Below are positions 1 to 41,048 of a stretch of 64,000 nucleotides of DNA, piece after piece. The DNA comes from the human T2T-CHM13v2.0 reference genome, Homo sapiens. Within the stretch, counting starts at the first letter, position 1; each line of letters begins with the position of its first letter. The position numbers were made by a program, and so were the translations under genes. The DNA lies in NCBI RefSeq assembly GCF_009914755.1, contig NC_060929.1. One strand, 5' to 3'. The notes beneath the pieces are model-generated. The model had not been told where the DNA came from and did not search any database. It was given only the letters and a program-made list of their open reading frames with translations.

Positions 1-18
1 CAGATGCCACGGCCTTAC

Positions 19-63
19 CTGCACTATTACATAAGACCTCCCCCAAGGCAAAATGGGAAAGGC
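19..63 (-). other. Degenerate third gate-exon copy / candidate cryptic in-frame 45-nt exon (AFPILPWGRSYVIVQ)
   Basis: tgtcttctag|GCC ... GTGCAG|gtaagg; 24/26 nt identical to the Y-exon donor junction, plus a second collinear block of similarity. Confidence 0.5.
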
Positions 64-646
64 CTAGAAGACACAGTTTTTTCATATGCTGGTCCCTTGA
101 GTGACACATATATGGAGAATTCCTTGTCTCCATAATCACATATGGATTCCTCCTCCCACTCCCTCTGTACTTCCACAAGGCCTGTCTCAGGGCCAGCCTC
201 AGGCCAGTCCCCATCTGCAGCCTGAAGAGCCATGCCAGTTTCATTCCCCAACTTTACTCTTTTGTTTTCTCTTTTAGGAGTTTGTGAATTATAAAAGTTA
301 TGGAACATAAGTGTTTTGGTCATAAACGGAGCTGTACTGCACAGAGCTTGAATGGTAAAGCACTTCTGCAAAGCTGCAATACTCTCTGAGAAGATGCTAT
401 CAGCTGGGGTCTCTCTCAGCTGAGTGTGTCCATGGGTAAGACAGGGCAGGCCTGGGGGCTTCCCTGGAACAATGCTCCCAGGAGGGACAAGTGGGGTGGC
501 TAAAGTCCTCTGAGCCCTCTGACCCCTATGGTACCTTCTGAGGACAGGGCAGTTTGGTCCTACTTCATGCCACCAGTGACAAGTGACACCCGCTAGGGTT
601 ATGGGTTCTAGGCACAGAGTGTGCCTCCCTGATGCCAGGGCCTTAC

Positions 647-724
647 CTGCACCATTCGCTCAAACATGTGTGCTAAAGGCAAATAGGAAATGTGCACATC
701 CGCACAAGTGGGAGCCCACTGACT
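647..724 (-). CDS. ACSL6: ACSL6 mutually exclusive Y-gate exon (SQWAPTCADVHISYLPLAHMFERMVQ)
   Basis: ttttttcttacag|AGT ... CAG|gtaagg; 78 nt, phase 0/0; gate motif D-x4-Y-LPLAH-x2-E. Confidence 0.96.
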
Positions 725-781
725 CTGTAAGAAAAAAGAAGGAGCCCAGGCAAGGCCCGGTCAGTCAGGTGGGTGTCTTAC

Positions 782-859
782 CTGGATTACTCTCTCAAAC
801 ATGTGAGCCAGAGGCAGGAAGGAGATGAGCACATCGTCCTGTCTCGGAAAGATCACTTT
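782..859 (-). CDS. ACSL6: ACSL6 mutually exclusive F-gate exon (KVIFPRQDDVLISFLPLAHMFERVIQ)
   Basis: ctgcag|AAA ... CAG|gtaaga; 78 nt, phase 0/0; gate motif D-x4-F-LPLAH-x2-E. Confidence 0.96.
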
Positions 860-959
860 CTGCAGGCGACGGGCATGGGAGACAGAAAGGAAAGAAACAC
901 TGACAGGAAGACGACAAGAGAATCATAAAACAATAAAGAGAAAATGGTCCTGGAGGGTA

Positions 960-1090
960 AACAGGAAGAGGGGGAGGGGAATGGGAGTGGTGAGGACAGA
1001 GAGAGAGGTGAGATGAAAGAGAGAAGAAATGAGAGAGAGAGGGAGAGAGAGAGGGAGGGGGAAGGTGCAGAAAGAAGAGAGAGACAGGGC
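960..1090. repeat. Polypurine (GA-rich) tract, read as a long CU-rich tract in the pre-mRNA
   Basis: Directly visible. Confidence 0.9.
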
Positions 1091-1784
1091 AGCATAGGAA
1101 GCGGAGTGTTAGGTCGCAGCGTCAGTGGGTCTAGGTTATCTGCAGAAGCAAAGAGCCAAATGAAGCACACAGAAACCAGCAGAGTGGGCTCCGCAGGGAA
1201 GTCTCCTCTCTGAGGGCCTGCCCCTCACTTGCAGTCAGTCGGCTCTAGCCCGGCTCTCTCCCCTTCCTCCCCACACCTGCAGGACCTGCCCCACACCCCA
1301 TTTCTCCAGGATCCCTGGGCTACCCGGGCAGGGATTCAGAAGGTCTTGGCTAGTCAGCACTTTCTAGTCCTTGCAGAGAAAGGGGCCCAGAGACTCCTAA
1401 GTCTATGCAACTGTGGCTGGGGTATGAGCCCCAGCCAGAGGAGGAGACAAGGCCAAACCCCAAACACTGGCTGAGCCTGGCCTCACAAGCCATCCCTGGA
1501 ACCAGGGCCTTAAAGAGGAATGCTGACAGGGAGCCCTGCTGTGCCCCGCCAGCAAAGGGAGGGCCCAGGACACATCTCACAGATGGGACTGACCCTAGGG
1601 ACAGGGGCTACTCCAGCCAGGGGAGCCCTGCACAAGGCTTGGGATCTGGGTGGGCTGTGCCTCCACGTGCTCTCCTCTGCTGGACTTCCCTGCTCTCCAC
1701 CCCTTTGCAGAGGCCTTCACTCTCCTGTGCTGGCTTTTGGGCCAGCTTGGGCAAACCTTGGCTCCTGACCTGGGCTCAGCCACC

Positions 1785-1840
1785 AACTGTCTCTCACAGT
1801 TTTCTGCTAAAATAAACTGTCTCTCACAGTTTTCTACTAA
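1785..1840. repeat. 30-bp tandem duplication
   Basis: AACTGTCTCTCACAGTTTTCT(G/A)CTAA at 1785 and 1815. Confidence 0.9.
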
Positions 1841-2536
1841 GTGTTTGGGGCACACACTTCATAATGTCATCTACCATGAATGTGGAGTGTGACTTTCTCC
1901 ACAGTGAAGAAAAAGCCAAACTTTTTTGAAAAGATACACTCCTTTATGCTGAAGGAAACTGCAGGACATACTCACCACTTGTGGGAAAAGTCCTCCTTTG
2001 TTAGCCAGTTATAAAATGCTAACATGCTTTGGTCAGGCCAAGACATCAAAGCTTTTTTGATTTTAGATTTACCTTTAAGTACAGCCTTATAAATTAGCAG
2101 TTGCCGTTGTTTCTCAGACTCTAGTAGTCCTTAAACACAAAATGACTGAATTAAACCCTGACCTTTGAAAAACAAGTTATTAAGGATTACTTTCTAAATA
2201 AAGGTACACACAAAACCATGGGTATATCAATTTTTGAAGTTATTTGAAGTTAGAAAGGAAAAATAGGTTTGCATGCTTTTCTTTCTGGGATCTTAGTACT
2301 CCCAGAAATCAACTGAATATTTGTCACGTATGGGTCATTTCAGTATTTGGAGTGAAAAGTGATGGTAAAAGTGGGGTTGCTCTAATGAGAACAGAAACTC
2401 CTGCCTGTGAATGGCAGCCCAGGTTATATCAAGAAAAAAAAAAAAAGAAAAAGAAAACAAACAAATAAAAAAAAATCCTCTGAGGCTTGAGGTTGTCCTC
2501 AAGAGACACCTGCAACAGTAATTCTACTTTATTCAC

Positions 2537-2610
2537 CTCTGTCACTTTCAGAAAGCCTGAGAAATCAGCCACCACGTTCCCATGGGTGAGCATCGCACCT
2601 TTTGGGTTCC
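2537..2610 (-). CDS. ACSL6: ACSL6 exon 10 (GNPKGAMLTHGNVVADFSGFLKVTE), second half of the P-loop
   Basis: tttctttttatag|GG ... GAG|gtgaat; 74 nt; completes TSGTTGNPKG. Confidence 0.97.
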
Positions 2611-3349
2611 CTATAAAAAGAAAGCAAGAAGTCAAATTAGTTGGAAACTCAAGGGCCACTTCTTGAGAGCAGTGCCCAAGTTGGCAGTCCCAGACACCCA
2701 TGCTGTCTACCCAAGCCTCTGGCCTTTGTCTTCAGCCACCTTTAGACTTACAGGCAGATGAATGCTGCTTCAGGGACCGCTATCCTATAGACATAGCCTA
2801 CCATTAGGCTCCCACCAGCATGGGACCAGGAGGCAGGTGATATGGCTGCACAGGAGGGGTGCCTCAAGGCCTGAAGGGTCAACTGCTTGTGGTCTGTGCC
2901 TTATCCTCTCCCGTCTTCCTTCAGGAGCAGAGGCTGTCAGCCCCGAGTCCCCTTACATATAGCAAGGGCTCTGTACTACTCCCTGGGCCTGAGTGGGCCT
3001 GGTCTCCTGAGTCCAGCAGCCAACTCTGATGGCAAAGGACTTCTCTGCTGCATTTGGCACCTGGAAAGGCCCCAGGCTCAGGCCAGGCTGGAGATCCAAG
3101 AGGGCTGGGCAGCCCTTCCTGCCTGCTCCTTGGCAGAAATGGGACACAAATATTCTTGCTTTGTTTTGATATGACCTTTCACTACTGCTCGTGAGGCCTA
3201 GTTCTCTGGGCCCTTGAGGAAGTCAGGGGCTGCTAGGATGACTCAGAGGGTAGAGATGGCTAGGGATCCCAGGCACAGCAGGCTGGGAAGGGAGGACAAC
3301 TTGGCCACCATTTCCTGTCAGGGTAGATACAATCCCAAAGTTCCTGCCG

Positions 3350-3512
3350 GACAGATCTGACAGGGCTCAAATCCTAGCCTTGCCACTCACTGCCAGCATA
3401 ACACTGGCAAGCCATTGTTCCTCTCTGTTTCCTTACCTGTAAGATGGGGAGAGTAATGCCCACCTCACAGGCTTCTATAAGATCTAAAGATATAATCTAA
3501 GTATGAAAGATG
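3350..3512 (+). mobile_element. MIR
   Basis: GGCTCAAATCCTAGC..TGCCACTCAC...CTCTGTTTCCTTACCTGTAAGATGGGG...ACCTCACAGG. Confidence 0.7.
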
Positions 3513-8892: not shown

Positions 8893-11295
8893 ATAGATGA
8901 ATTAGAAAAAGAGTGCTAAAAACACATAGACTGAAAGTTATGTTTTTTAAAAGCACTGTATTTTCTTTGCTGGGAAGACAAGGCATATGAACTCACAAGG
9001 ATAAAACATCCTAACTATCATTCAAGAGACCCAATTTCCCAAACTGGGCTATGTTACACCCACATATTATCTTTTTTTCAGAGGTGGGAATGGGTTCAGA
9101 TTCCAGTCCAGCTAACTGTTATTTTGAAATGAACAGCAAACCACATGCCCACCCCTCAGCCATCACTGGGTACAGACAGACCACAAGCTCTCACCACCTC
9201 CCAGGCCTTCTTGGCCTGAATAGGGACTTCAAAGTACTGACTTATTCTAGGAATCTCCACAGATTTTTTCCACCACATGCTAAGAATGAAATCTTCCTGG
9301 AATGATTCCACCAGAATCATGGGCCAAATGTCAGGTTCAGATCATATTTTCCATCTTTCCCCATGAAAAGAACAATGTGGCCCTTGATGAGGCTGGGAGC
9401 CAGGACATTTAGCTTACATTTAAGGGAAGCTGTATCTGGGCTGTGACGCTGAGGACACACAAGGCTGATGTGCCCGACAAGAGGATGAGTACAAGAGGCA
9501 CAGCATGGGCTTAGCCTAAAGCCAAGGAAATCCAAGTGCACAGCCAGATGGGGTGATATCAGGCCAGAGCCCTGCTCACTCCCCCAGCTCTGCCCAGGCA
9601 ACAGCCATAGCTTTGGAGTGGGAGGTCTGGGATAGTAAATCACAGCCTATGTTTCAAGCCCTATACATTCTGCTTCCACCACACAGAGCTTGAGCAGGAT
9701 GGCTCAGCTTCCTACAGTCTGGAAAAGCACTGGACATGATGTCTGCCCTCCCCAGCCAGGCAATAGCACATTTCTGCATCATGAAGTTTTTCTCCAGATC
9801 CAAGGGCAATGTCTGTGACCAAGTGACCTGTTAAAAGGCTGAAGGCACACTTTGAAGGCAGGTCCAAAGGTAAGGCCATAGCAGTGACCTGCTCCCCAAA
9901 ACCATGTCACCAAAAATTCACATTGTAAAACTCAAGACAAAAAGACATTGGAAAGTGCTCTTTAAAAAGCAACATAAACCTGAAGGGCATTTTTGAATTC
10001 TGGGTTGGCTCTGGATGTCAGCTCCTGGAGAGGAAGGGCTGTGTTGTTATTTTTCTGACAAAGTTTAGTAGAATATGGTGGAAATCCTTGAACCCATGTG
10101 AGTTAATGGTAAAAATCTATCTATATTCAATAAAGCATGTTTATCATGATCCACTGACATGAATAATCCTGGTTGTAGGGCTGGTCACAGGTCTGTCAAA
10201 TGCCTTAGAGGCTGCATCTGCAGAAGGCATGCAGAGCCCCAGTTCACTGCCCACTGAGAGCTGTCATCAAGATGGGCCAATCCTCAGTTTGGAAAAAGAA
10301 GGCTGGAGACTTCCTGCCCATTCAGGGCAAGACAAGTGACATCCACGTCATCAGATGAGATGGAAAGGCAGCACTGGGAAAGGCTCTGGCCTGGGAATTA
10401 TGACAGCAGGGCACAGGCCCTGGTGCTTCTACTTGCTGATGGTGTCCCTTTGGAGCAAGCAGGCTTGGTGACAATCCTGCTCACCTCACAGGCTGTGCTG
10501 AGGCCCCAGTGGTGCAGAGAGAGGGTGGACAGCATGCTATAGAAATGCAGAGGGTTGTGCCTGTGCTGTGTGTGTCCTCTTGTGCTTTCTGCCTCCCCCA
10601 GGAAGCCTTCCTTGATTATTCCTGCCACTGTTGATGTGTGTGCTCCTCTGTCAGCTCCAAGCACAGAGGATATCATTTCTGCTTGTGTGCTTTGCCTGAC
10701 AGCCTTGCTCATGGCACACCAGCCCCAGCCTGCAGAGCATCTGCATTGCCCTTTCACACACTGTCCCATCTCCCACTTGGCACCTTTAGCCACCCTCATG
10801 GCAGATGAGAAACTGGGGACACTGGTGGCAGAGAAGTTAAATGAGTGGCTCACAGTCCCCCAGCAAGCAGTGGAGGTAGGACTCAAACCAAGGCTCTCAG
10901 ACGCCAAACCTCACACTCTTTCCCCAGTCTCCAACACAAAGGCCAGGCAGGGGCAGAAAGCAGGGGAGTGAGAGCTGTTTACCAGAGAGAAATGATGCCA
11001 GTGAGAAAGGACCTTCCCTCAGCACATGATCCAGCTGCCCATGACTCTGCTGACTCAGCTCTGGGAGGTGCCAAGCCCTCACACTGGACCTCCCAATGCA
11101 CACTATCCATCTGCATCTGGCCACTCTTATGCAGGGCACTGGGAGGTGCAGGAGGTCACCCAGTGTCTGGAGCCAGGAACAAGACAAGGCTCAGCCCATT
11201 TCAAACAGGGTATCAAAGACTCCAGCAGTCACCTGCTAGGCCACCAGGGAAGGGTGCAGGTAGCCATGGCTGGGGATCTGCGTGCCTCTGCTTAC

Positions 11296-11347: not shown

Positions 11348-12710
11348 CTGCAGGGGTGAGAAGAGGAGTGTGTTAGGGAGACCCAGTGTGGCCAGCCAGG
11401 GCCCAAGATGCCTGGGCTCCCCAACCAGCCAGGCCCATATGTATGCTGTATGTGGGTGTGAGCATGTGTTGGGCACGCCTGCATGCTCCTGTGTGCTGCG
11501 CTCAGAAAGGTGGGCAGATGAGCGCTCAGGAAAAAGAAAAAGAAGCTGAGGAAACCTAACTGGGGTGTGAACACTAATCTGTCCCACCAACCTCACATCT
11601 GGTCCCACTGCCTCCCCTACTTGAGCCTGGGCTGAATTATCCTAGGTGGGATTGGGCTGCAGTGGCCACATCTCAGTCTCTATCAAAGCTCTGACCTTTC
11701 TAGTGGATGTGACCCAGTTCCCTCCCTCCTTCCCATGTTCTCCCAAGTATCTGAGGTTAAGCTTGGGAGCACGTGTGGCTTGGGCACTGAGCTGCCCACT
11801 GTGTCACCAAGGCTGCTCTGCATCAGCCCTTGCCCTGGCACTGGGCACATAGTCTGGGGTCACCAGAAGGAGCCCACCAAGTCTGCTTGCATGTAGAGGA
11901 TGGCTTCCCAGAGGAGGTGACAGTTGAGTTGAGATGGAAGCGCAAGCAAGATTTCTCCCGATGAAGTGTGGGTGGGTGTTTTGGGGAGAGGAACCAGCCT
12001 GGGCACAGGCACAGAGGCAGAAGAGAGAAAGGGTGCTGAGGGATGGGAGAGTGGTTCTCTAAAACTGAGCCGTGATGTGTAGGAGATGGGCAAACACCAG
12101 GAGCTACCCATGCAGTGCCCTGGGAAGCCGGGGGTGACCTGCTCAGGCCTGTGTGAAGGGAGAGGGAAGGACTGAGCTGGAGGGAGGCCTGGAGGCCATA
12201 TGCCTTTTAGAAAGTTGAAAACCCCCACATGGCCCATCCCGGGGGCAGCTGCCCTCACTGTGGCTCAACCCCAGGAAGTATCACATGGGGATGACGCACA
12301 GAACAGTTCACAAAGCAAAGATGAACAAAGACAGCAGATGCCACAAGGCCATTTGGCACAAGAGTCCATTTCTGGTTCTGCTGTTGCTTCTGTCTACTGC
12401 ATCTTCTGGAGAGTTTGCCATATTCATAGTGAGAAAATAAGACTTCCCAAAGAAGTTACTTGAAGAACCAAGGGTGGCCAGGATTGGCATCTCTTTTTTC
12501 TCCCTCCCAAATACCTGACTCCTGTTCCAGGTCCTTCCCTGGGCCCTCGGCCCACAGAAGTCCTGGACACTCAAGTGGGCATTTCCTGGCTTGCACACAG
12601 GAGTTGCTTATTAACACAGAGGTGCTGTTCTGTGCACAGTGAGGGACTCTGTGAGGACAGGCCCTGCACGCCATCTCGCTCAATAAAGATCTGCAGGTGA
12701 ATTCGCTTAC

Positions 12711-12743
12711 CACAGGAGCCTGGTGATTCTCTTGGCCACAGTC
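12711..12743 (-). CDS. ACSL6: ACSL6 exon 8, 33-nt small exon (DCGQENHQAPV)
   Basis: ttcttctttcag|GAC ... GTG|gtaagc; phase 0/0. Confidence 0.93.
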
Positions 12744-16838: not shown

Positions 16839-19800
16839 CTACAAGCCAAGCACCGGCCAGAGAAGTTGGCTGAGGCAGGTAGGGGTGCCAGGAGAGGGCC
16901 GCAGCATGCACAAGGCTGTACCCAGCTCGGATGTACAACCCGTGCATGCAGTTAGCACCGTGGCATCTGTGTGCCCGCGTACACATGGACTACACACACC
17001 TGGACTGTATACACTCAACCTGCATGTAGCCACACTCCGACATAGTTGGCTCATGCATAAAGGCCGGGTATACCAGTGTCCCCACATACAAACTCCACAC
17101 ACACATACAGCATTCACACAGCAGGTCAGCATATGCAGAATGTCCAGAGTTTTCAGTTAATGTTCGTACACACCCATGTCTCATTCATACAACACAGTGG
17201 GGAGTATTGGCTGGATTCAGGAACAACCTGCCAAGGTATCTCCCATCCCATCATCTACTGCTATGCCCCTGAGTTAAGGATCAGTTGGGTGTGGTGTTAG
17301 CTAAGAAGGCTGCCACCCATCATTCACATAATGATGTGAGTTAGAGGACTGTGCTGAAGGTTCTGTCCCAGGCACAGAAGCCTAGGAGGCTAGGGAGGGA
17401 GGACAGGCTGAATTATGTTCATGTGCAATGGGGGAGGAGAGGCAGGCAGCAAGTTCCTGGGCCCAAAGTGGCACGGGTGCAGAGTGGGAAGGTGGCAAAC
17501 CCCTCTGTGCTGGTGAGTAGGGCGAGGAGCCAGCCTTCTCCTGCCTCCTCCCCTTCTACCCTGTCACCCTTCCCCAGGGTGCCCAAACCCAAACTCTCCA
17601 GTATCACAGCTCCACCTCTTCTTCAAGCACTATTTGAGCTACGCTGGGCTGGGCCAGAGCCTGCCACCTCTTGGAACAGCAGGTCTAAGGAAAAAAAACA
17701 TCTGTGAGAACCAGAAAGCAAACAGCCGAACTCAAAACCACAGGCAGCTCCCGACTGTTTTCGAGTGGAAAGTTCTGATTGGCCAGTGCTTTCAAGGACC
17801 AAGCCCACCTAAGACCTGCAAGAGAAGCTGGGACACATCCAATCAGACCCAGTTGCACTTGGGCAACAGATATGGTACAAGGAGAGACTGTATGCCAGGG
17901 ACAGAAGAGGCTCAACACTGGGCATGTGTGTTATCGATCAGCTGCCAAGCTGGGCTTCGAAGGATGGATGGGGGTTGCCGGACAGAGTGAGGAGGAGGGA
18001 ATAGCAACCCTGCATAGGCAGCACCACATGCAAATGCACCGGCAGGAGGCACAGGTGCATTTGGGGAACTGTAGGCAATTCATGGAGCTCCAGATCGCAA
18101 TGGTTGGGGAGGAGGCCAGAGAGGCTGCAGATCAAGGCAGAATCTGGACTTGAGGTTGAGGGTAATGGGGAGCCAGGAAAGGGTTTTAGGCCAGGCGAGT
18201 GACAAGATCTGAATTATTTCCCACCACACAGCAGGCACAGTCAATGCTGCCAGGCCCTGTCTGATCTGGGCCCCTCTTGCCTCTCCCATCTCATTTCCTA
18301 CCACTGTCTCCTTTGCCTACTCCGGTGCAGCCACTCTGGCTTTCTGGGCTCCTGGGGGATGAGGCAAGGGAGGATGCAGTCATTCCAGGAAGGGAGGCAT
18401 TAGCTTCATCCCATGTCCTGTCTTCCAGACCCACAAGGTGACTCACTCAGTGGCCCCTACACACGAGCCAGGGTCATCCCTCTCACCATTCTGACACCAT
18501 CCAGACCACTGTCACCTTCAACCCAGATGCCTGCAGCTGCTTTCTTACGCTTGCCCCTGTCACACCCACCTTTCTACGGCACAAACTGGCCATGTCTCTC
18601 CCTACTGAAAATCTCAAATAGCTCCACGCTGTTCCCTCTGCTGGTCCCTGCACAGTTCACAGGGCTCTGTCCTTGCTGACCTCTCCAGATGTGATATAGT
18701 CCCAAGCTTAACCAAAAACAGCTGTCCTTAGTGACTTCTCTGGGTCATCACACCCAATCTTTACCACACCTTAGAAAGCAGGTGCTCTTTTTATTACACA
18801 CTTTACAACTGAGAGCCCTGAGGCTCAGAGAGTTAAGAAACTGCCCAGGGCCATACACCTCAGAGGCACAGCCAGGCTTCAAACCCAGGACTGCCAGACA
18901 CCAAAGGCCATTCTCAACAGCACTTGGCCAGCCCATCTCTGGCCCCTCTCCACTACCTAGCGTCCCACGCAAAGCCCCCATGTGCCTCAGCACACACCTG
19001 CACCTTTGCACATACCATTCTTCCGCTGGAAAAATGCCCTGAAGATCCCAGCCCCTACCTCAACCTGCACCCTCCCCTACAAGGCAAAACATGCTTATGA
19101 TCGCCAAGGTGCACTGTCAAGAGCAAAAGGCAAGGTGCACAACAGGGTATGTGGTGGATATGAGTGAAAGCGTGGTGAGTATCTCTACACATCTGCTCAC
19201 GGCCAGGACAGAGCATTAGCAGGTTGCATCAGGGGAAGAGAACTGGGAGAGCAAGGAAGAAGACACAAGCTTTTCAGTACATTCCATTTGTTTGTTCTGG
19301 ACTATGTGGATACATTATCTATTCCAAATGAACAGAATTCAAGAGGAGAAAAAGCAAATTTTTAAAAGGCAAAAATAAATTCCATAAGCTTAATAATGAA
19401 ACACACCTCACCAGTCCTTCCAGGCTTAGCCTAGAACACCCTTGTCCACTGGCCCTTGTATCGTCTTCCCCTTGGTGGCACCATGTGTGAGTCCATGTAC
19501 TCAGGGAGAGCAGGGCCAGGAGTGGGCTGAATCCTGGGTCCCAGCACCAGACCAGGAGAGTTTGGGAGGGAATCTACCAGGAAGCTCCTCAAGAACCTGC
19601 TTAGGCTTCCTACTGCAATACCAATGAGCCAAGGCCCTCCTACCCGAGAAGCAGGCAAACTAGAGGCCCAGTGCAAGGCCCAGGTCAGGCTCTACCCAGA
19701 GGCAGTTCCTGGGAGAGGCAGAAGGAGTGCCTGGTAGGAGACCCTGCCCAAGGCTGCTGCAGAGCTAAGTGGCTGACTGCCAGGGGAGACACCTTCTCTG

Positions 19801-20123: not shown

Positions 20124-22273
20124 CTGTTGAAAACAAGAGTCAGATAAGGCAAGAGACCTGACGGGCAGGTTAGGGAGGGGTCCTGGGTCACAGGACCTGA
20201 TATCTGGTCTGAAACACTGTAGGGCAGGCCCTGGGGGAGTTGGGATGTACAGAGTGCACCCCAGAAGCTGGCTACCTAGAAGGGCTTTTCCCAGGAAGAG
20301 GCCAGAACCTTCTGCCGTCACACCTGACAGTCAGATATCCTGCCCACTTTTCCTGAGAATCATACGCTCAGGCCCTGGGCCATGGCTGACAGCTGCTTCC
20401 ATATTTTCCAGGGCCACTGCTCTGGCAGCTCTGGGAATGATGCTTCCTGGACCTCAAGGCCTGGGTGCTCTGTTCTCCTGTGTGACAGCTGTCATAGCAT
20501 TTTACTTATCTTTGCTCCTGGGGTGTGGAGAAGAGGGAAGGGCAGCAGAAGTGCTCAGCACAGTGCCCAGGGGTGAAGGAATGCAGGCTCCTCCCTCTCT
20601 ACCTCTAATCTCCCAACTCCAGGCCCTGACCCTGAGTGAAAGCGAAGTGGGGGCAGGGCAAAGACCGCAGATCAGCCCTGACAGATACTCCAGTCCTCAT
20701 GATGTGAAGGTGAAGACCTATCTGACTGTATGAGCACTATGGCTCTGCACTGTCCCTCACCGACTACCAAGAGGACAACTGGCCCCACCATAACTGGGCC
20801 CTGTGCTATCCTCCCTGATCCCTTCAGCAAGTGTTCAGAGGCAAGGCAGGTGGCAGAGGAGAGCAGGTGTTAACCTGGTAGGAAGAGAAACCACGACTCA
20901 GAGAGAAATGGCTCAGCGGAGTGCTGTGTGCGCTCCCCGGGGGACCAACATCTCCTGCCATGTCACAGATGGCAGCCAGGGAGCCACCCTCACCCACTAC
21001 AGCCCAAGTGGGTACAGTGGGCCCATCAGGGAGACATGGCAGATGCCCTGGGGTAGAGAGAGGGAAGGTCTCTGTGAGAAGCACTGGAGAATGGCTGAAA
21101 GAGAAGCAGGCCCCAGGGGCCTGCGGCATCCTCCTCTCGGCCACTAAGTGAGGCCGTGTTGGCACAGCAAATACACAGCCAGCTTGGCTCAAGGGTTCTG
21201 TACCTTGCTTGGAACTGAGGAAAGTATCAAGGGTGGGCCAGGTGATGGGTGCTGGCATCCCCAATGGGACCCCCTCATGTCACTGCCTAGTAGGACTTGA
21301 GGCTAGAGGCACCTACAGGTCTGCCAGCCCAGTGATGGCAGGGTGGGCTCAAGGCTGCCCTGTACCACCCCGAGGCACCCTCCTCACAGGCCCTAAGCCT
21401 TTGGAAGCATGGCTGTGCTTCCAAGAAGGGAAACAAGGAGAATGCAACAGTGGCTACTCTGCAGCCATGGGATATGAGCCAAAAAATTGCTTGACCCCTG
21501 AGAGAGGGGAGATCTGCTGAAATCCCAATAAATGGCATTTGTGTTAAACCATAACATCATGACACCGGAGATGAAGTCAGTGATGTGCAAAGTCATTGCA
21601 GAGACACACAAAAAGCCCTTCAGTTGTAATTCCTTCTCCTTCTCTTATGAGCAATGCAAGGTTGAGCCTATCCTTCTTCTCTGAACCTCCACTTCCCCAT
21701 CTTTAAAATGAGGGCAGTACCATTTAGACATATAAAGCCCCTTGCACTGCATCTGGCATATTCAGAGGACTAAAGAGATGGTTAAAGTATATGCTTGTCA
21801 AACCAAGAGGACTGCTCAGCCCAGGACACATGAAAAGGGGTCAGGAGCAGGCCTGGTACAAGCACTGGGCAGAGGTGATTTGGCCTGCACACTGTGGCCC
21901 CACAGAAGGAGTTTATGCCCTGCAGATGGCACAGCAGGCTGAGTCCTGGGAACACTCATCAGCCACCCACAGGCTCTGGGTGAGCCTCTAGCCAAGTGTG
22001 GTATTTTCACTGAGCTCCTGAGCTGGAAATCCAGTTTTAACAGAAGCTTCCTTGAGCTGGGTCAGTTATGAGACCATCCTGGAGGAACAACCCACTCCTA
22101 GCATATCCATCCAATTCAGCTTCTGCATAATAAAGCAGAGGCCAAGTTATAGACCACAGTAGATTCACCAGGGAAAATCACTCTGGAGAAGACTCTGGGT
22201 AGGTGACTAGCTGGCCTTCTTGGGACATTTACTTCCTTAAGCTATAGATGGGAAGATGAAATCACAGCCAGGC

Positions 22274-22292: not shown

Positions 22293-25200
22293 CTACTTAG
22301 TAGAAAATCCAGACATGCTCACCAACTCGTAGGGTGGGTTCTGAGCTGATGGACATTTTTCTTGAAGGAGCTGAACTGACTTAATGATATGAGAAGCCAA
22401 GGACCAAGAAACTCATGCCTAGCACGAGGGCTCAGCTGTATACCCCAAAAGTTTTAAAGGGAACCCTGGAAGGATACCTCATTACCACCAGTCCCTGGTC
22501 CTTGGCAGATGCTCACAGACTCTGAGCTTTGCATATTGTGGCATTCGGTGCAATGCTAGAGTTTTTACAGAGCACAGCCCAGATTAGCCAAGTCATCCAT
22601 CTGTCTTTCAACGCATCTGGCAGACCCTCACACAGTCCCTCTTCTCATCTAGCTCAGAGTTGGGCCTGCCCTCGGTCCCCTGGGAAGGACACATGAGGAA
22701 ATGGGCAGTGTTATGATCAGACATGGGGAGCCAGAAAAGCTGCCTGACTTAGGTACGAGAGAGTCAGGGCAGGCTTCTGGCAGGAAGTGATATTGATCCT
22801 GAGAATGAAAGATAAAGATGAAAGGGTGGCCTGGCAGAGGAAAGTAAACATACAAAGGCTGGAGTTGAAAGAGCACATGGGACACTTAGGGAACAGAATA
22901 TTCTGTGCAGAAAATAAAGCACTGAGCCCACAAAATCTCATACAAAGATCAGTGCTACAAGTCTGTGAGGCTGGCCTCTTGGATATGCTGAGCTTTCAGC
23001 AGTCACGGTATTACCATGGTCCTCAGTGGGAGGAAGAAGGGGACTTGGCCTAAAATTCCTGAGTTCCTGATGCCTGGGCAGCCTTTTCCTACACACTGTA
23101 CTGTTTGACCCTCACAACAGCTGCAGGTACTCCCTCTAAGGTGGGAGAACAGAGGCTCCACTGGAGAAGCCACCTTGTTCAGCAAGCGAGGCACACAGTA
23201 AACAAGTAGTAGAGCATAGACTCAAGCCCAAGACTGCAGTCTCAATGCCAGCCCCTCATGTGGTATGGCCACCCCAACCCCTGCCAACATTGGGCCCACT
23301 CCCACAATCCATCCTTTCCTTCGCATTGGCACTGAACCCACAGACAACCAGCTCCAGCTGCCTGGAAGAGCCCAGGCCCAGGTTCAGGGGCTGGGGGAAG
23401 TGCAGGGCCACCAGAGCCTGTATGAGGGGACCAGCCAGTTGGGCCAGTCATTTGCTATCTTTCGCCATGGACATGGGTGGGCTTCTTCCTGGCCTTACAT
23501 CAAGAACTCACCATCTTCTCCTGGCTGAGTCCTTCTCCTCCTACCTGGGGTGATGGAAGGCAGTGCGCAAAGGGCTTGGCTGCCCACTCCTCCTTGCAAC
23601 TTCTACTTAGGTGCTCACCCTGAAGGAGGTATTTGCAGCAGTGGCAGCTCCTCTGACCTTGAGGCTGGGCCTGTACCCCACCTTGGCTGGGCAGCAACCA
23701 GAGGGTCTCGTTCTTTCAGGCTTATCGACCTTCTCAGTCAGAACTGCTTGCGTTTACACTGAGGTTCCCTTCAGACCTGGGAGCCACTGCAAGGCAGAGC
23801 TGTGAGTCCAGGTCCCCTGAGGACATGGGCCTCAGAGCCAGCCCAAGCCACCAAGCCTTTGACATGGGGAGGGCAGAGCCTAGGCCTTGGAGTCTGGTCT
23901 CATCTCATTATTTCACAGGGCCTTGGCCTCCTCTGACCTCCACACCTCTCTTTTGACCTGGGGTAGGGCTTGGTGGTCTCTAGGGTCCCAGCCATACTGC
24001 CTCCTTCCATACCCCAAGAGACTCTCTTGGCTGCAGCAGAGATGTGCATTGTGTGTGTGTCGGGGGCAAGAGGAGTGTGGACAGCACTCAAGGGAATCAG
24101 TGGTGCTGGTGTTGCCAGGTGAGTGACTGTGTTTGTAAATATTCACCTGGCAGGAGGACTCAGGCATGAACAAGCCACCTAACATGAACTAGCCACCTCC
24201 TCCTCTCTTCCTGGAATATCCGACATCTTTTTCTCCAGCACAGACCAGTTCAGAATACCAAGTGGTAGCTAAGGCTAAGGAAACTGGAACTTCCTCCCAC
24301 CTCAGCATGCCCTCTGCTGATTTAGGGCAATCCAGCATGGGAGAGAACAGGAAGAAAGGGGCCCTGGTGGGAAATATGTTGGCTCCAATGTGGTGGGGTG
24401 GCAGAAGCAAAGCCCCAGAGCACAGTCACTGTGGAACTGGCCCTGGGGACCCTGACATGGCTCCAAGAACTCTCTGCTGGTCCAGCCTCCTAACCTCAAT
24501 ACTCTAGGCTTCATTGTCTAGCTGGATACCCGACCACTCCTCTCTACCCCAACGGCCCCAGGCCTGACAGCCACCACCAACCACAGCCCAGACTCCCATA
24601 CCACCCTCTCCATAGGTCTCCTTGCTCTAACAGGTGCTTGCCCTGTTACCAAAGTTATTTCCTGATATGTAGATAGGATCATGTCATGCCACTGCTCAGA
24701 AACCTTATCTGGCTTCCTATTGCCTTAGGACCAGAGTCCAAACTAATGCTCACACTGAGGCTCTCCATGATCCTCGGATTCTTCCCTCCCCTTTGAATCA
24801 CTCCAGCTTCCTCTGTATCAGCCTCTCTAATAGGGGTTCATATGATGGAGTTCTGGGCCTCTGCAAACTTCTGAGGTCTTCAAAACGGGTGGGGAAGCTC
24901 AAGCCCAGCCACCAAATCATCAAAGAATCTCCTCAACTCCAAGTGAAGAGCTCTGAAAAGAAAACTACAACCTCTCCCAGGGCCCAGGGACCCTAGCAAA
25001 CGAGCTTGGGAGAGGACCCAAAGTGGGTATTCTGGGTATTCCGGTGCTGAACTGACCTGGGTCCAAATCATGACTCAGTCTCTTGATAGCTGTGTGGCCT
25101 TGGGCAGGTCACTTTGCCCCTCTGGGCCTCATCTCAAACAAGCTCATGGACAGAGAGTGCAGTGCCAGGCATGTAGTAAGGGAAACACTTAGTAGATAGC

Positions 25201-31049: not shown

Positions 31050-34000
31050 TGCGTGAGTTGAAGGTGTCCTCAGAGAATCACATCCAGCCCATCTGCTGGA
31101 AAGCACAGTCACGATGAACACTGAAGTTCTCCAGCCACTAAGCAGGGTCCTGGGGTCTATGTGGCTTCATGCAGCATCAGCTCTAGTGGCAGGGCAGAGT
31201 GGCCAGAGCTTCCCTTCCAAAGCAGAGGGGTCACTGCAGGCCTGGATGGGTCTCCACTGAGTCTACTTTCTCCATACTGACAATTGTCTTCCTCTCACTG
31301 GCCTAAAGGCCTTAAGGCCTTACTCCAGCCAACCTCCCTGTCCAATCTCACTGGCCGGCTCACATGCCACCTTGCTGATCTCTGTCCCAGCTCTAACTGT
31401 CCTTGCTGTGTAGCCTCTAGCTGCCCTTTCTATCCAATATCTAGTTGACCTCACTGTCTCTCCCAGTGACATTTCTGCCTGTTTATGAGGCAGGATCTGC
31501 AGTCAGTATCTAGAATGGTCTGCAGCAAAGCTAAGGCTGGGACAGGGGTGCGTGGCCAGGAGGAGTCCCACGGGGGAGTCTCAGCCCCTACAACAGTCCA
31601 TGAGTTGGAGGGAAAAGCAGAGCTTTGTAGCAGAGCTGAGTCTTGATCAGTCCCTTGGAATCCACATCCTGCACTGGTGGGCCAGGCTGTGCTGAGAGTG
31701 AGGCGGGGTCCCAGGCACTGGTCAATAGGGTCTGTCCCAGAGCTGCCCAGTCAACCTGGGCCTACCTACTCACTCATTTCTCCAATAGCTATCAATTACT
31801 AAGTCTGTTCCTGGCCCTAACAGGTGCCAGCCCACATTTGCTTATACCAGGGGCTGAGCACTAAGATGCTGATTGTTCCCTCACTGGCCTGGCTTCCTGC
31901 TCTAAATTCCCAGGAGACAGTGATCTCGGAACACAAGCTTAAATGGGCAGATGGCAAATCAGAAGCCATTCCCAACTCCCCCAGACGCCCCTACTACATG
32001 CCTGGCTTAGGTGCAGGGAGAGGAAGGGTATCTCTGGGAAGAGCTGGCAAATAGGGTCAGGTGAGACTTCTTGGGATTTGAAATCCTTCTGGCTCTGAGA
32101 GTATTGGTTGGGTCTCAGAATAGATAGCTCGGCTTGGCTTGAAATTTCTGTTCCAATCCACTTCCCATCTTCCCATTTCTGCCTGTCCCAGGCCCCAAGA
32201 TTCACATGAATTAGGAGCTACACAAAGGAAGTAGGCCCAGGAATAACCACACCTACCACGGATCTCCCGAGGCAGCTGAGCAAATGATGAGGAACCACCC
32301 CTGGGCATCCTGAAGGACAACCCCAAGGGCTCAAAGCAGCATCTCATCCACAGCACTCCCCTAACCCCACCAATCTGTGGACCCAGTGGATGGTTAGTGG
32401 GAACTCTGGCGAGGCCAACGCAAGGAATGGGAGCATCACACCAGACCATCCAGTGAGGTGAGGACCTTGACTGGGAATTCCTCTCATCTATGCTTGGCAG
32501 AGTGGCCCAAGCTCCCAATCTGTCAGGTGACTGGAACCTTGGAGCTCTAAGGAAGCAGCAGCCCTCAGAGAAGACTCTCTTCCACAAAACTGGTCACCCA
32601 GAAGCTGTGGGTTCACTAGTTGATTCATTCATTCATTCAACAAACACTTCTGGAGCACCTCCTTCTATTCCAGGCTGCACTGGTTCTCAGCACACAGGGT
32701 TCTCCAGTGAAGGGTAACCTGGCCCTGCCTGCAAGGAGTTTACACCTGCTTTTCCCTACTGCTTCTAACATATTGGCATCATCCCCCACCTGGGCACAGA
32801 GCCTAGCATCCTAGCAGGAGCACACTCAAAATCTGTTGTTTACTGATTGACTTGTGGTAAGGAAACAGCTTATAAAACACATTATTAAAATAAATTACGC
32901 TCAGGGAATTCTTTAGTTTATGCAATAAACTCTTATGTACCCTGTGTGCCCAACTCTGGGTTGGGGACATAGACATGAGACACCTGGCCCTGCCCTCAAG
33001 GAGACCATGGACTTGTGGAGGAGGCTTCTGGAGCACAGGAATAGTGTCACCTTGGTCATCCACATGCCCAGTTCTACCCACACCTCCTTGACATAACCGC
33101 TGCACAGAATAAAGCCAATGCTGTTTGGCCTGTTATCCTAGGCCTGCAGAGCCCACCTCTGGCAACCTCACTGGCCCAGCAGAATTGGTCCTTCAACTTC
33201 ATTCAGTCCTATTGCCAATCTTCCCTCACACAGGTCCCTTGGCCTGGAATGCCTTTTCTTTTCCTACTCCCTTTCTGCATGTCAGAATCCTGGATCCCCT
33301 TTAAGGAAAGCCTAATACAAGTTATTATAATTTTAGCTAACATGGCTGGCTGATCATGCCTGGTGGTCCCTTCCTGGACTGAAAGTCTGAGAATGTGGCC
33401 TGACTCACAGCTCTTACAAGTTGCTTCACCACTGAACCTCGCTGAGTCTCAGGGCCTCACCTAGGCAATGGGGAGAACACAACACAGTGTTGTGGGAGGA
33501 TGGAAGGAAAGTTTGGAGAATCATAGACAGGGTGCTTGACACATGGTAGGTGCTCAGTGAAACAACAGCCAAGTCAGCCTGTTTGCAATAGTTAATCCCA
33601 TAAAAACACCCCTCCACACACACCTAGTACTTAATGAGTATTTGAGTGCCTACTATGTGCCCAGTGCTGGCTGGATACACAGTGTAGCTTCTGTTATACA
33701 AAAGCCTGTAACTTTTGCCCATTTTTATAAACAAGCCAGAGCCTCATGATCACTCACCCCATGTATGGGACAGTCCTGAGTCCCATCTGGGGCTGTAGCT
33801 GAGCCAAATTCAGCCTTCTGAAGGTCAACCCATGAATCCTTATAACCACAAGGGACAGAACAATAGCTGGAGAGCATAATGACTGGGTTCTGCTGCCCCC
33901 TGGTGTCAGTATGTTCTTACCATATAGGCTGGAGAGCTGTGAGAAGGTGCTGCGGGCAAAATCCTGCTCCATGCTGGTGCACCTTGTACAAATTCAGGCT

Positions 34001-38601: not shown

Positions 38602-41048
38602 CAGGCAGCCGGGCCTTCTCTATACGCAGCCCTCCCAGGCCAGGAGCTGGCTGAGCCACAGCCCAGAAAGAAGAGGATAGAAAACCAGAGAGCAGAAGTC
38701 AGGAAGCAGAGAGTGGAAGAGCATGAGATCTCTTCAGGCCCACCAGAGACCATCAGCCATGAGTGCATGTGGGCTCACAGCTCAGCAGCTGGGTGTGTGG
38801 GGGGGCCTGTATCTGTAGTACGAGTACATGGCATGTGTGTGCCCAGGCCTGTGTGCACCTTGTAGTGGTGCAAGTGTGCAGATGTGTGCCTCTGAGTCAC
38901 TTCCAATCTTTACAATAGGATCCTACACCTTCTCCATCATAGGATCTGGACTCCTGGGAGAGCTGCTCCAGCTTGAACTCAGCCACAGCCTGGCAGGGAC
39001 TTTGCTGGGATCTCAAGCTTGGCAGGGCTCCTCCAAGAGGGTGTGACAGAGGCTGTGTGGCAGGACTCCTCCCAGCAAGTAACATGGCTTTGAGAATCCC
39101 CCCACCCCACCCATACACTCCCACTGGCAGCAGAGTAACTGGAGATCTGCTAGTACTGAAGAGGAGACCCAGGGGAACCAGAAGCCTGGGCAGAAAGAAC
39201 ATATCTCCCCAGACCAGATTGGTCTAGGGAGGTGGTCAGGTAATTTCCCCATAGGCCAGTGGTTCAACAGAGCATTTCTTCACAGAGCAGGGGGCCAGGA
39301 GCCAGGCTGCAAGCCTCAGGCCTCTGCGGCACTCAGCTGCAGGAGCACTCCGGGCCCTATGCGGCTCTGGCAGCCTCCTCTTCAGAGTGATGTCATGGGA
39401 CACATTTAGCTTGGCCTCCAGCAGGATGTCGCATCCCGTTACTCTCCCTACAGATGTCTCTGCTACTTGTGAATATTTTAATTCAAAAACCAGTACTGGA
39501 GCTGTGACTGATTCTAGCTTAGCCAAGTATTTTTCTGTTTTCCTCTGAGCATGGCTTGGCTTCCCCTGAGAGATGGGGACAGAAAGGCCCTAGCCTGGTT
39601 GTGGGATCATGGCCAGGTCTCTCTCCTCTCTAGGCCTGTTCCTTCCACTGAGTAATGGGACTTGTTCTTTCCTGTCCTGAGTTCCCAAGGTCTTCTTCCT
39701 TCTCTGTGAGTCTCAATCTGTGGACCATCTGCAGGCATGGGTAGACGCTGTGACTCAGGCCCTAGACTGCATGGGTGTGGCATCCATGGAACCCAGGGCC
39801 CAGAAATGCCCAGGCCAGGCTGGGGAGCCCTTGGATATCCCTCTTGGTCCTTAGCCAGCAAATCCAGCCACCTTAGCGGCCAGCCATGTTCACACATATC
39901 TCCTCCCAGACTAGCATCTCTAAGTGGGTTGGCAGGCAGGAGCCTAATCATCTATTTGCAGCCCTGGCTTGGGGTCTGGCCCAAAGAATGCAGAGGATAT
40001 TATCCCATTTGACAGAGCAGAAGACTGACGTTGGGAAAGGCGAACAACTGTCTTAGGTCACACAGCAGTTCTGGGCTCCTGACTCCCATTTATTCATTTT
40101 TCATTCATTCTCTCCTACATTTTGATAGTTTCCCAAGTTGCAAGTGTCTCCGGTAGAATCCAGAAAACTCACTTTTCCAGCTTCCTTTGCAGCTAGGAGT
40201 GGATTAGTGACTTAGACTGTACCAATGAAACACACTCTCATGAGCCTTCGATAAAAAAGCCAGAAATGAGTGAAAGAAAGTCATGCACATGGCATCTACG
40301 TTGCTGGCACAAGGGTGGTAACAGAAGCCATGGATGGTGGATGATTCTGGGAGTCATTTCAGAAACTGAAATTTGAGCCTGTTTCTTGAAGTGCCCCAAA
40401 AGTTGAGCCTTTTAGAAGTGAACATGTTCTTTAATGTACTCTTTTTCTGATTAAAACAGTCAGTCCAGACTTTGTTTAGTCAGTTTGGAGCCAAGAACTC
40501 AAACTGATCCACTCACCATCCCACTGCTGAAGGTCTTTCCTGCCCTCCAGAGGGTGTGGATATGGGGCTGGCACACAGCATGATGCATCCTCTGTCCCCA
40601 TTACTGCATCTCCTAGTGGAAGCTCTGACTGATGGGGCTGGGTGGGCTGAGCCAGGTCTTTGCTTCTCTGTATTCTGACAACCACATATTTGGAGACCTG
40701 AACCAAAAACTTGAAACTCAACAAAGAATCCACTAAGGATAACTACCCAATCTGGAGCAAAGGCTTTTAACACATGATATAATGGTTGGGGAGCTGCAAA
40801 CAATATTCAACCATGTCTTTTACTGAGTAGTGGTGTTTTTTCCCCCTCAGATTAGTAAAATTGTTCAACATAGAAATTTTGGAAAATATAGAAAAGTATA
40901 AGATAAAATCACTTGTAATTTCATCCCCCAATGAGAATGCAATAATAACTAATGCAGTTCTGTATATTTTCTAACAACAATAATAATATCCAACATTTAC
41001 ACAGGGCTTAGTATGAGCCAGACATTATTTCTAAGCACTTTACGTATG

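What the first reader, a model, noticed from the sequence alone, without database searches (positions are those of the whole stretch)
1..100. A third, degenerate copy of the ACSL6 gate exon that still has splice sites and keeps the frame
Seen: nt 3-28 match nt 631-656 (the Y-gate exon 3' end plus donor and first intron bases) at 24/26 positions. Nt 45-60 (aaggcaaaatgggaaa) match nt 676-690 (aaggcaaataggaaa, the ISYLPL codons) with one insertion and one mismatch, and the spacing is collinear. On the gene strand this reads tgtcttctag|GCC TTT CCC ATT TTG CCT TGG GGG AGG TCT TAT GTA ATA GTG CAG|gtaagg. That is a 45-nt, phase 0/0, stop-free unit (AFPILPWGRSYVIVQ) with the same donor as the Y exon. 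It keeps LP and the terminal VQ but has lost the D-x4-(F/Y)-LPLAH-x2-E gate motif. Known: ACSL6 and ACSL1 have two mutually exclusive gate exons (F/Y) that tune fatty-acid preference. Inference: the cassette was triplicated, and the third copy is either a decaying pseudo-exon or a rare gate-less exon giving an inactive or regulatory isoform. I do not know of it being annotated, but I cannot check.
Basis: partly seen in the sequence, partly recalled or inferred. Interest (0 to 1): 0.8.

Follow-up and report, generated by a model that had tools for sequence, protein, structure and literature searches.

The report
Decayed partial ACSL6 gate-exon copy beside SINE
About 630 bases downstream of the ACSL6 Y-gate exon lies a real but broken copy of that exon's last 45 bases and splice donor, joined to an old MIR repeat; it is most likely a harmless relic and not a working third exon.

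Summary
Window 3-28 matches the Y-gate exon/donor junction (631-656) at 24 of 26, and window 45-60 matches the ISYLP codons (14 matches, 1 mismatch, 1 indel), collinearly. None of 2000 shuffles reached the alignment score. In the whole 3.1-Gb assembly the 26-mer has no other match at up to 3 mismatches.

Only the 3' ~45 nt of the exon and the first 16-31 nt of its intron were copied. The 5' 33 nt and the Y acceptor have no detectable counterpart, so the proposed acceptor is not inherited. It is also the weakest of 13 acceptors compared. Flanking introns are not homologous, and ACSL1 has no such copy, so this is not a triplicated cassette.

Immediately downstream, partly outside the window, lies a sense-strand dispersed repeat that I recall as MIR (E 1e-29 against a model built from other copies). 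Its alignment runs into the "donor". The Y-like sequence turns MIR-like at window ~1-3.

The unit is absent from the 25 RefSeq transcripts and from a systematic screen of mutually exclusive exons. It lacks LPLAH-x2-E.

Best reading: a neutral Y-exon fragment joined to a MIR, possibly made in one event. Expression and cross-species data could not be checked.

The parts
3..28 (-). Block B: copy of the last 10 nt of the Y-gate exon, the donor and 16 nt of intron (24 of 26 identical to window 631-656).
   Evidence: D5. It is the only other genome-wide match at up to 3 mismatches.
45..60 (-). Block A: copy of the I-S-Y-L-P codon stretch of the Y exon (14 matches, 1 mismatch, 1 inserted base vs window 676-690).
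   Evidence: (D6).
29..44 (-). Scrambled middle, where the L-A-H-M-F-E codons should be. It does not align convincingly to Y or to the MIR model. In the predicted fold, window 34-45 pairs with window 54-65 as a 12-bp hairpin.
   Evidence: Alignment; fold.
19..63 (-). It is stop-free but lacks the gate motif.
   Evidence: Absent from the hub's RefSeq exon list.
64..88 (-). Proposed acceptor region (catatgaaaaaactgtgtcttctag). It lies outside the copied segment and has a weak pyrimidine tract.
   Evidence: 9 of 18 pyrimidines, lowest of 13 acceptors. (no significant homology to the Y acceptor).
1..31 (-). 5' end of the alignment to a dispersed-repeat (MIR-type SINE) model, in sense orientation. 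The element continues outside the window to L001 1317 (about window -183). Sequence is clearly MIR-like from tctggag onward (window ~2 and leftwards).
   Evidence: 28 other genomic matches. (model from up to 52 copies, third copy excluded). (E 1.2e-29, model 51-258 to L001 1531-1317)..
647..724 (-). Y-gate exon, the source of the copy.
   Evidence: Hub table.
782..859 (-). F-gate exon, separated from the Y exon by a 57-nt intron (window 725-781).
   Evidence: Hub table. Y vs F: 59 nt aligned, 78% (D2).

Best explanation
Window 3-60 is a neutral relic. It is a partial, decayed copy (about 60-77 nt) of the 3' 45 nt of the ACSL6 Y-gate exon plus the first 16-31 nt of its downstream intron. It sits 628 nt downstream in the same intron and same orientation, and it is joined directly to the 5' side of an old sense-strand MIR-type SINE.

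The consensus donor is inherited from the Y exon. The acceptor is a chance AG in pre-existing intron. The gate-motif codons are destroyed. It was never one of three full cassette exons and is not spliced into ACSL6 mRNA at any appreciable level.

Origin (inferred, not shown): the direct junction with the SINE suggests one event. One option is reverse transcription that switched from the SINE RNA to nascent ACSL6 pre-mRNA. Another is break repair at the SINE head that copied the nearby Y junction. My rough split is: linked origin ~45%, independent small duplication plus chance SINE neighbour ~30%, other ~25%.
For: - The paralogy with Y is real and specific.
- Its extent is limited. There is no significant homology upstream of block A or downstream beyond ~77 nt.
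- It resembles Y, including Y's intron start, and does not resemble F or ACSL1. The ACSL1 Y junction reads GAAG|GTAAGTGTGG..., and its 1.8-kb downstream intron gives only a background score of 12. So the copy arose after the ACSL1/ACSL6 split, from Y alone.
- The SINE is well supported. There are 28 other genomic matches to the downstream stretch. A model from other copies hits L001 1531-1317 at E 1.2e-29. Body identity is 104 of 132 (79%), typical of the family (median 78%).
- There is a switch from Y-like to MIR-like. Inside the 26-mer, at the 9 sites where Y differs from the empirical SINE consensus, the copy follows Y at 7, the SINE at 1 and neither at 1. In the next 5 bases it follows the SINE at 2 sites and Y at none (sequences printed).
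- A same-strand SINE 5' end within 10 nt of a given point is expected with p ~0.0025.
- Evidence against use as an exon: it is absent from the exon rows of the hub's 25-transcript RefSeq table; it has the weakest of 13 acceptors; it is only 45 nt long; and the predicted folds pair both splice sites. Hatje et al. 2017 supplements list ACSL6 cluster 2342 with two exons and mxe1/mxe2 primers only. The Results section of Soupene & Kuypers 2006 describes Ex(F), Ex(Y), skipping of both and a half Ex(F), but no third gate exon.
Against: - No junction-read, long-read or cross-species data could be consulted, so rare or tissue-specific use is not excluded.
- The donor matches the consensus at 8 of 9 positions, as well as the Y donor does.
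- Blocks A and B together are 38 of 41 identical, which is higher than the SINE body's 79% (binomial p 0.016). This could mean constraint or a younger origin. However, the blocks were chosen post hoc, and the whole alignment is 44 of 57 (77%), the same as the SINE (p 0.69).
- The SINE-head model scores the copy at 21.4 bits ungapped, above every 34-mer in the window. The Y junction itself scores 10.2 bits, reached by only 37 of ~128,000 window 34-mers. So where the Y-derived part ends and the SINE begins is not sharply defined.
- My SINE head model rests on only 20 copies with head coverage.
- No target-site duplication could be sought at this age.
Confidence: 0.7

Rival explanations
1. Ancient triplication of the whole gate cassette (F, Y and a third 78-nt exon). 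The third copy has since decayed, losing its 5' half, and later acquired a SINE next to it.
For: Collinear blocks A and B in the right order and orientation downstream of Y. A 13-of-15 match to the Y acceptor plus first exon bases lies 109 nt upstream of block A.
Against: The upstream match is not significant: 61 of 336 real-sequence controls and 45 of 1000 shuffles reach it. It is also 72 nt out of register. The introns flanking the copies show no homology. ACSL1 shares the F/Y pair but has no third copy. The copy shares Y's intron start (15 of 16), which F and ACSL1 do not, so it is younger than the F/Y duplication.
Confidence: 0.12
2. A functional element. It could be a rare gate-less 45-nt exon, which would either replace the gate exon or add 15 residues after it. 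Or it could be a decoy donor with a shared intronic element that influences F/Y choice.
For: The donor matches the consensus at 8 of 9. The unit is stop-free and in phase. Ten further intronic bases after gtaagg are 9 of 10 identical to Y's. Blocks A and B are 38 of 41 identical against 79% for the neighbouring SINE. Gate-less ACSL6 and ACSL1 transcripts exist through skipping of both exons.
Against: It is not among the exon rows of the hub's 25-transcript RefSeq table, and it is not in the two-exon cluster of Hatje 2017. It has the poorest acceptor of 13. The motif LPLAH-x2-E is gone. It lies 583 nt from Y, so nothing would enforce mutual exclusion. The predicted 12-bp hairpin over the acceptor and the 11-bp stem pairing the donor with the SINE's ccttacctg would hide both sites, although the fold as a whole is not exceptional (z -1.72, 8 of 200 shuffles fold as well).
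Confidence: 0.07
3. No paralogy at all. The stretch is simply the 5' head of a full-length MIR that happens to look like the Y junction.
For: The SINE model aligns ungapped through the donor with high posterior probability. The copy scores 21.4 bits on the head columns, and the Y junction itself is unusually head-like at 10.2 bits.
Against: No other place in the 3.1-Gb genome, which holds very many MIR copies, matches the Y 26-mer at up to 3 mismatches. The copy follows Y at 7 of 9 sites where Y and the SINE consensus differ. Block A lies upstream of the SINE alignment and is also Y-like and collinear. The SINE model finds nothing at the Y exon (no hit at E up to 100 in window 1-3000).
Confidence: 0.03

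Closest known systems
ACSL6/ACSL1 mutually exclusive F- and Y-gate exons (Soupene & Kuypers 2006, PMC1543647; abstract and Results section read)
   Same: Derived from the Y-gate exon. Same strand and same intron series. Same CAG|gtaagg donor. Retains the L-P codons and the terminal V-Q.
   Different: It is 45 nt, not 78. It has no D-x4-(F/Y)-LPLAH-x2-E motif and no inherited acceptor. It lies 583 nt from Y, whereas the F-Y intron is 57 nt. It is not in any listed transcript.
Unannotated or decayed tandem exon duplicates found by exon-versus-intron similarity searches (Ivanov & Pervouchine 2022, PMC9013439, passages only; Hatje et al. 2017, PMC5740500, passages and supplement passages)
   Same: Intronic sequence similar to the neighbouring exon, on the same strand, downstream of a known mutually exclusive pair.
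   Different: It is a partial copy, not a whole exon with both sites. It overlaps a repeat. PMC9013439 says targets intersecting annotated repeats were filtered out, so such a screen may have dropped it. I could not open their supplements.
Chimeric retro-insertions made by reverse-transcriptase template switching, with a 5' part copied from another RNA and a 3' part that is a 5'-truncated retroelement. Described for L1; recalled from memory, no paper consulted here.
   Same: A host-RNA-derived piece is joined head-to-tail, in the same orientation, to the 5' side of a retroelement. The host piece carries an unspliced exon-intron junction, as nascent pre-mRNA would.
   Different: The element is a MIR (mobilised by L2, as recalled), not L1. 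No target-site duplication can be seen. The truncation point is unclear because the Y junction and the MIR head resemble each other. A DNA-level repair copy fits equally well.
MIR SINE family. The name is recalled. The family was defined here only empirically from genomic copies.
   Same: The downstream 215 nt align to a model built from other copies (E 1.2e-29) at 79% identity to the empirical consensus.
   Different: The first ~30 nt of the aligned head are better explained as Y-exon junction sequence.

Membership tests
ACSL gate cassette exon (F/Y type) | 78 nt, 26 codons, phase 0/0 | tested here: not met
   The proposed unit is 45 nt. The phase is kept only through indels that net to -3 after the LP codons.
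ACSL gate cassette exon (F/Y type) | Encodes D-x4-(F/Y)-LPLAH-x2-E (motif as given in PMC1543647) | tested here: not met
   The translation is AFPILPWGRSYVIVQ. Only L-P remains.
ACSL gate cassette exon (F/Y type) | Homology to the gate exon over its whole length, including the acceptor | tested here: not met
   Only the 3' ~45 nt align. The best upstream score is reached by 61 of 336 real-sequence controls.
ACSL gate cassette exon (F/Y type) | Presence in a transcript | not testable with these tools
   No exon row in the hub's RefSeq table covers window 19-63. Hatje 2017 lists two exons only. No junction database was available.
ACSL gate cassette exon (F/Y type) | Shared with the paralogue ACSL1 | tested here: not met
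   ACSL1 (L037) has F, a 66-nt intron and Y, but no third copy.
MIR-type SINE | Dispersed copies across chromosomes | tested here: met
   28 matches elsewhere at 72-90% identity. 14 model hits in this window.
MIR-type SINE | Alignment to a family model built without this copy | tested here: met
   E 1.2e-29, 93.7 bits, model positions 51-258. Body 104 of 132 identical.
MIR-type SINE | Match to the curated MIR consensus (Dfam/Repbase) | not testable with these tools
   No repeat library is held. The family name is recalled from the core sequence of the empirical consensus.
Template-switch chimeric retro-insertion | Host-RNA piece and retroelement joined directly, in the same orientation | tested here: met
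   Y-like sequence turns SINE-like at window ~1-3, both on the gene strand. Chance of such adjacency is ~0.0025.
Template-switch chimeric retro-insertion | Retroelement 5'-truncated at the junction | tested here: inconclusive
   The model alignment runs ungapped into the Y-like block. Diagnostic sites there follow Y 7 to 1. A 15-nt surplus follows ctggag.
Template-switch chimeric retro-insertion | One target-site duplication flanking the whole chimera | not testable with these tools
   At ~79% identity per copy, a 10-20-nt duplication would be unrecognisable. No convincing direct repeat appears.

The most novel reading that the evidence does not exclude
The fragment is a fossil of a single chimeric insertion. 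While a MIR RNA was being reverse-transcribed into this ACSL6 intron, the enzyme jumped to the nascent ACSL6 pre-mRNA. It jumped at the Y-exon donor region, which happens to resemble the MIR head, and copied ~60 nt of unspliced exon-intron junction before the insertion was sealed. That would make it an L2/MIR-era template-switch chimera that captured a host splice donor. The donor it planted, together with the SINE's own ccttacctg complement, could still act as a weak decoy in F/Y exon choice.
Probability: 0.25. Interest if true: 0.45.

Novelty: new member of a known kind. Interest (0 to 1): 0.22.

Why it matters
This mainly serves as a caution. Similarity to a neighbouring exon, a consensus donor and an open frame can suggest a hidden third alternative exon. 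Here only the donor half is inherited, and the rest is chance intron plus a SINE.

For ACSL6 biology it means the gate region still has two exon choices (plus skipping), not three.

There is a smaller point of interest. The direct junction between a host exon-intron fragment and a MIR is unlikely by chance (about 0.0025). It may record how the fragment was made. Cross-species alignment could date and test that idea cheaply.

A strong donor planted 628 nt into the intron is also a plausible site for cryptic splicing if nearby variants strengthen the acceptor.

Tried and rejected
- Homology of the Y exon's 5' half and acceptor upstream of block A. The best match was TACAGAG..AGTGGG at 13 of 15. 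I rejected it because 45 of 1000 shuffles and 61 of 336 real-sequence controls reach the score (earlier 32 of 1000).
- Tandem duplication of a ~630-nt unit. Rejected, because the two downstream introns give a score of 15 against a shuffle mean of 13.3, and 74 of 300 shuffles reach it.
- A SINE next to the Y exon as a common source. The SINE model has no hit at E up to 100 in window 1-3000.
- A third copy in ACSL1. None found. ACSL5 shows a single Y-type exon.
- Genome search with the head region alone (L001 1425-1545). It found only itself.
- Column-wise comparison of 20 real SINE heads with the copy and with Y. This was uninformative because the head columns are riddled with indels (means 7.2 and 7.9 of 26).
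- Pairwise head alignments. These lack power: head-head mean 6.7, copy-head 6.9, Y-head 5.9, shuffled 5.95.
- Enlarging the SINE sample with 20 more 10-kb stretches.
- Rfam. Nothing relevant; two chance-level hits far below gathering score.
- RNA fold of the unit plus SINE. The stems are interesting but the overall z-score is -1.72 and 8 of 200 shuffles fold as well, so it is not evidence of selected structure.
- Earlier findings of this scan were not open.
- Paper reading closed. I could not see the supplements of PMC9013439, which may list unannotated exon duplicates. I also could not read the 2026 ACSL6-variant paper (PMC13184358); I saw only its search listing.
- Literature search for ACSL6 with cryptic exon, pseudoexon, exonization or novel exon. 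None of the 15 papers listed (of 694 holding at least two terms) contains ACSL6.

Full report
**1. What is in the sequence**

On the ACSL6 (-) strand the window ends with ...aaaaaactgtgtcttctag|GCCTTTCCCATTTTGCCTTGGGGGAGGTCTTATGTAATAGTGCAG|gtaaggccgtggcatctg.

Window 3-28 vs 631-656 is 24 of 26 identical. The repeat finder extends it to 29 nt at 90% with spacing 628 (D5).
- The second match is window 45-60 vs 676-690. It has 14 matches, one mismatch and one inserted base at spacing 631 (D6), so the two blocks are collinear.
- A gapped local alignment of the 140 nt at the window's start against the Y-exon region scores 25. Dinucleotide shuffles give 9.6 ± 1.7 (maximum 21), and 0 of 2000 reach 25.
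- nhmmer gives E 2.9e-4 with the third copy as query. With the Y unit as query it gives E 0.011, and that hit is cut at the window edge. In the same search the F exon scores E 2.1e-7.
- The strongest statistic is genome-wide. In the 3.1-Gb assembly the Y-junction 26-mer has no match at up to 3 mismatches other than itself and window 3-28. The reversed-pattern control finds none. About 4e-3 chance matches at up to 2 mismatches are expected genome-wide, and 1e-9 within 1 kb.

**2. How much of the exon was copied**

The copy resembles Y, not F. The best alignment to F is 13 nt around the donor.

It shares Y's intron start (gtaaggccNtggcatc, 15 of 16). Neither the F exon nor ACSL1 has this. The ACSL1 Y exon ends GAAG|GTAAGTGTGG..., and the best score against its 1.8-kb downstream intron is background level at 12.

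Upstream of block A nothing significant aligns to the Y exon's first 33 nt or its acceptor. The best match, 13 of 15, is 72 nt out of register and is reached by 45 of 1000 shuffles and 61 of 336 real intronic controls. Downstream, beyond about 15 nt after block B, the two introns are unrelated: 74 of 300 shuffles reach the observed score.

So the copied segment is about 60-77 nt: the last ~45 nt of the exon plus 16-31 nt of intron. Within it, the codons for L-A-H-M-F-E are replaced by a stretch that aligns poorly (window 29-44). Over the whole alignment, identity is 44 of 57 with 4 gap columns. In blocks A and B alone it is 38 of 41.

Two consequences follow:
- The donor is inherited, but the ttctag acceptor lies in pre-existing intron and is fortuitous.
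- The frame is kept only because the indels after the L-P codons net to -3.

**3.

The assembly is searchable, so I read leftwards of the window. L001 position 1501 equals window position 1.

- The next constitutive exon is L001 789-655 (SVVYCHGG...MYDK), 729 nt beyond the proposed donor.
- Directly after the Y-like segment comes a dispersed repeat. The 231 nt left of the window match 28 other places on many chromosomes at 72-90% identity.
- I built a profile from those other copies, with the third copy excluded. Three nhmmer rounds gave 41, 48 and 52 hits.
- The profile's consensus core is what I recall as the MIR SINE. The name is recalled; no repeat library is held here.
- The profile hits L001 1531-1317 at E 1.2e-29 on the gene strand.
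- The body is 104 of 132 (79%) identical to the empirical consensus, typical for the family (median 78%).
- The window itself holds 14 hits to this profile.

**4. Y junction or MIR head?**

The profile alignment does not stop at the end of the Y-like block. It runs ungapped, with high posterior probability, through ...atagtgcaggtaaggccgtggcatctggag.

Scored ungapped on the head columns:
- The copy gets 21.4 bits, more than any 34-mer in the window.
- The genuine Y junction gets 10.2 bits, reached by only 37 of about 128,000 window 34-mers.

So the Y junction happens to look somewhat like a MIR head. The profile has no hit at the Y exon itself.

A pure-MIR reading fails for three reasons:
- No other MIR head in the genome comes within 3 mismatches of the Y 26-mer.
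- At the 9 positions inside the 26-mer where Y and the empirical MIR consensus differ, the copy follows Y at 7, MIR at 1 and neither at 1 (sequences).
- Block A lies upstream of the MIR alignment.

In the five bases after the block, the copy follows MIR at 2 sites and Y at none. From tctggag onward it is MIR, apart from a 15-nt surplus that forms a near-palindrome around gcatgc (I11).

The structure is therefore a junction, at about window 1-3, between a Y-derived piece and a MIR, both in sense orientation. My head model rests on only 20 copies with head coverage. The exact switch point therefore stays uncertain.

**5. Origin (inference)**

A same-strand MIR 5' end within 10 nt of a given point has a chance of about 0.0025 at the local density of 8 per 64 kb. 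That points to a linked origin. I considered three models.

(a) Reverse transcriptase switched from MIR RNA to nascent ACSL6 pre-mRNA, helped by the likeness of the Y junction to the MIR head. It would have copied an unspliced exon-intron junction. This mechanism is known for L1 chimeras; I recall it from memory and consulted no paper on it here.

(b) A break at the MIR head was repaired by copying the nearby Y junction. Error-prone synthesis would explain the scrambled middle. The middle is partly complementary to the bases just upstream and forms a predicted 12-bp hairpin, counting G-U pairs.

(c) An independent small duplication with a chance MIR neighbour.

Relative age does not decide between them. 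Whole-alignment identity (77%) equals the MIR's (79%; p 0.69). The two post-hoc blocks are higher at 38 of 41 (p 0.016).

I put linked origin at ~45%, independent origin at ~30% and other at ~25%.

**6. Is it an exon?**

For:
- The donor CAG|gtaagg matches the consensus at 8 of 9, equal to Y's.
- The unit is stop-free and in phase.

Against:
- The acceptor has 9 of 18 pyrimidines at -20..-3. That is the lowest of the 13 sites compared; the 12 annotated sites range from 10 to 17.
- The unit is only 45 nt and contains a G-run.
- The predicted centroid structure pairs the acceptor and block A region in a 12-bp hairpin. It also pairs the donor (window 13-23) with the MIR's ccttacctg, 130 nt downstream, in an 11-bp stem. 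However, the fold as a whole is not exceptional (z -1.72; 8 of 200 shuffles fold as well).
- No exon row of the hub's 25-transcript RefSeq table covers window 19-63.
- The held supplements of Hatje et al. 2017 list ACSL6 as cluster 2342 with two exons and primers for mxe1 and mxe2 only (6 passages seen).
- The Results section of Soupene & Kuypers 2006 reports Ex(F), Ex(Y), both skipped, a half Ex(F), and an unrelated 45-base exon between exons 7 and 8. It reports no third gate exon.

F and Y are separated by 57 nt (66 nt in ACSL1). That is short enough that steric exclusion is the usual explanation (inference from general knowledge). The relic is 583 nt from Y, so nothing would make it mutually exclusive.

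The peptide AFPILPWGRSYVIVQ lacks LPLAH-x2-E, so a protein carrying it in place of a gate exon would probably be inactive (inference).

I could not query junction databases or conservation tracks. Occasional cryptic use of so good a donor would not be surprising. Regulated use seems unlikely (about 7%).

**7. Comparison with what is known, and novelty**

This is a decayed partial exon duplicate, or pseudo-exon, of the kind that similarity screens turn up next to duplicated exons.

I found no mention of it in three searches:
- 58 papers, 20 listed.
- none of the 15 papers listed holds ACSL6.
-.

I could not open the supplements of Ivanov & Pervouchine 2022. That study states that targets overlapping annotated repeats were filtered out.

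It fails every tested defining feature of a gate cassette exon: length, motif, full-length homology, and presence in ACSL1. I therefore do not file it as a third gate exon.

The one unusual aspect is the direct junction with a MIR and what it may say about how the fragment arose.

**8. Verdict**

The most likely explanation is a neutral Y-exon fragment joined to a MIR (confidence 0.7). Interest is low (0.22), with a modest upside if the chimeric-insertion origin or a decoy-donor role were shown.

Noticed in passing
L001 1383-1400 (about window -117 to -100), gene strand: The core of this MIR copy reads ...gttccttacctgtag... The ccttacctg is a perfect 9-nt complement of the CAGGTAAGG donors of both the Y exon and the relic. 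It is 80% complementary over 15 nt to the F donor region (I14). The centroid fold pairs it with the relic's donor.
   Followed up: partly
window 12627-12699: The intron just downstream of exon 12711-12743 shows a weak likeness (nhmmer E 0.049) to the Y exon's 3' end and downstream intron (ttgagcga ... ggccctg ... ctgtgc.agaac). It could be chance or a shared intronic motif.
   Followed up: no
window 1493-1512: A third occurrence of taaggccctgg...caggga, 17 of 20 identical to the Y junction's intron start, lies in the intron upstream of the F exon (D3). No exon-like sequence sits beside it, so it is probably chance.
   Followed up: partly
L001 1484-1503 (window -16 to 3): A 20-nt near-palindrome, ctggagagcatgctttccag (93% over 14-nt arms), sits exactly where the Y-like sequence meets the MIR. 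It contains a GCATG motif and is followed by a tandem ctttccag duplication (I11).
   Followed up: no
window 725-781; L037 (ACSL1): The intron between the F and Y gate exons is only 57 nt in ACSL6 and 66 nt in ACSL1. That is short enough for steric exclusion to explain why the two exons are rarely joined.
   Followed up: no
window 3361-3499, 10802-10937, 18722-18914, 21621-21721, 23164-23259, 25050-25131, 33430-33560, 36215-36323, 36449-36631, 39990-40122, 40976-41051, 41947-42014, 45515-45640, 53942-54002: Fourteen further hits to the MIR-type profile in the window (E up to 0.01). Most lie outside the stretches the hub lists as masked.
   Followed up: no
window 961-1091: A GA-rich low-complexity tract (gagagag/ggagggg repeats) lies just upstream of the F exon's intron. 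It coincides with a masked stretch and with the long alternative exon ends 782-949 and 782-1139 (D1/D4/D10).
   Followed up: no
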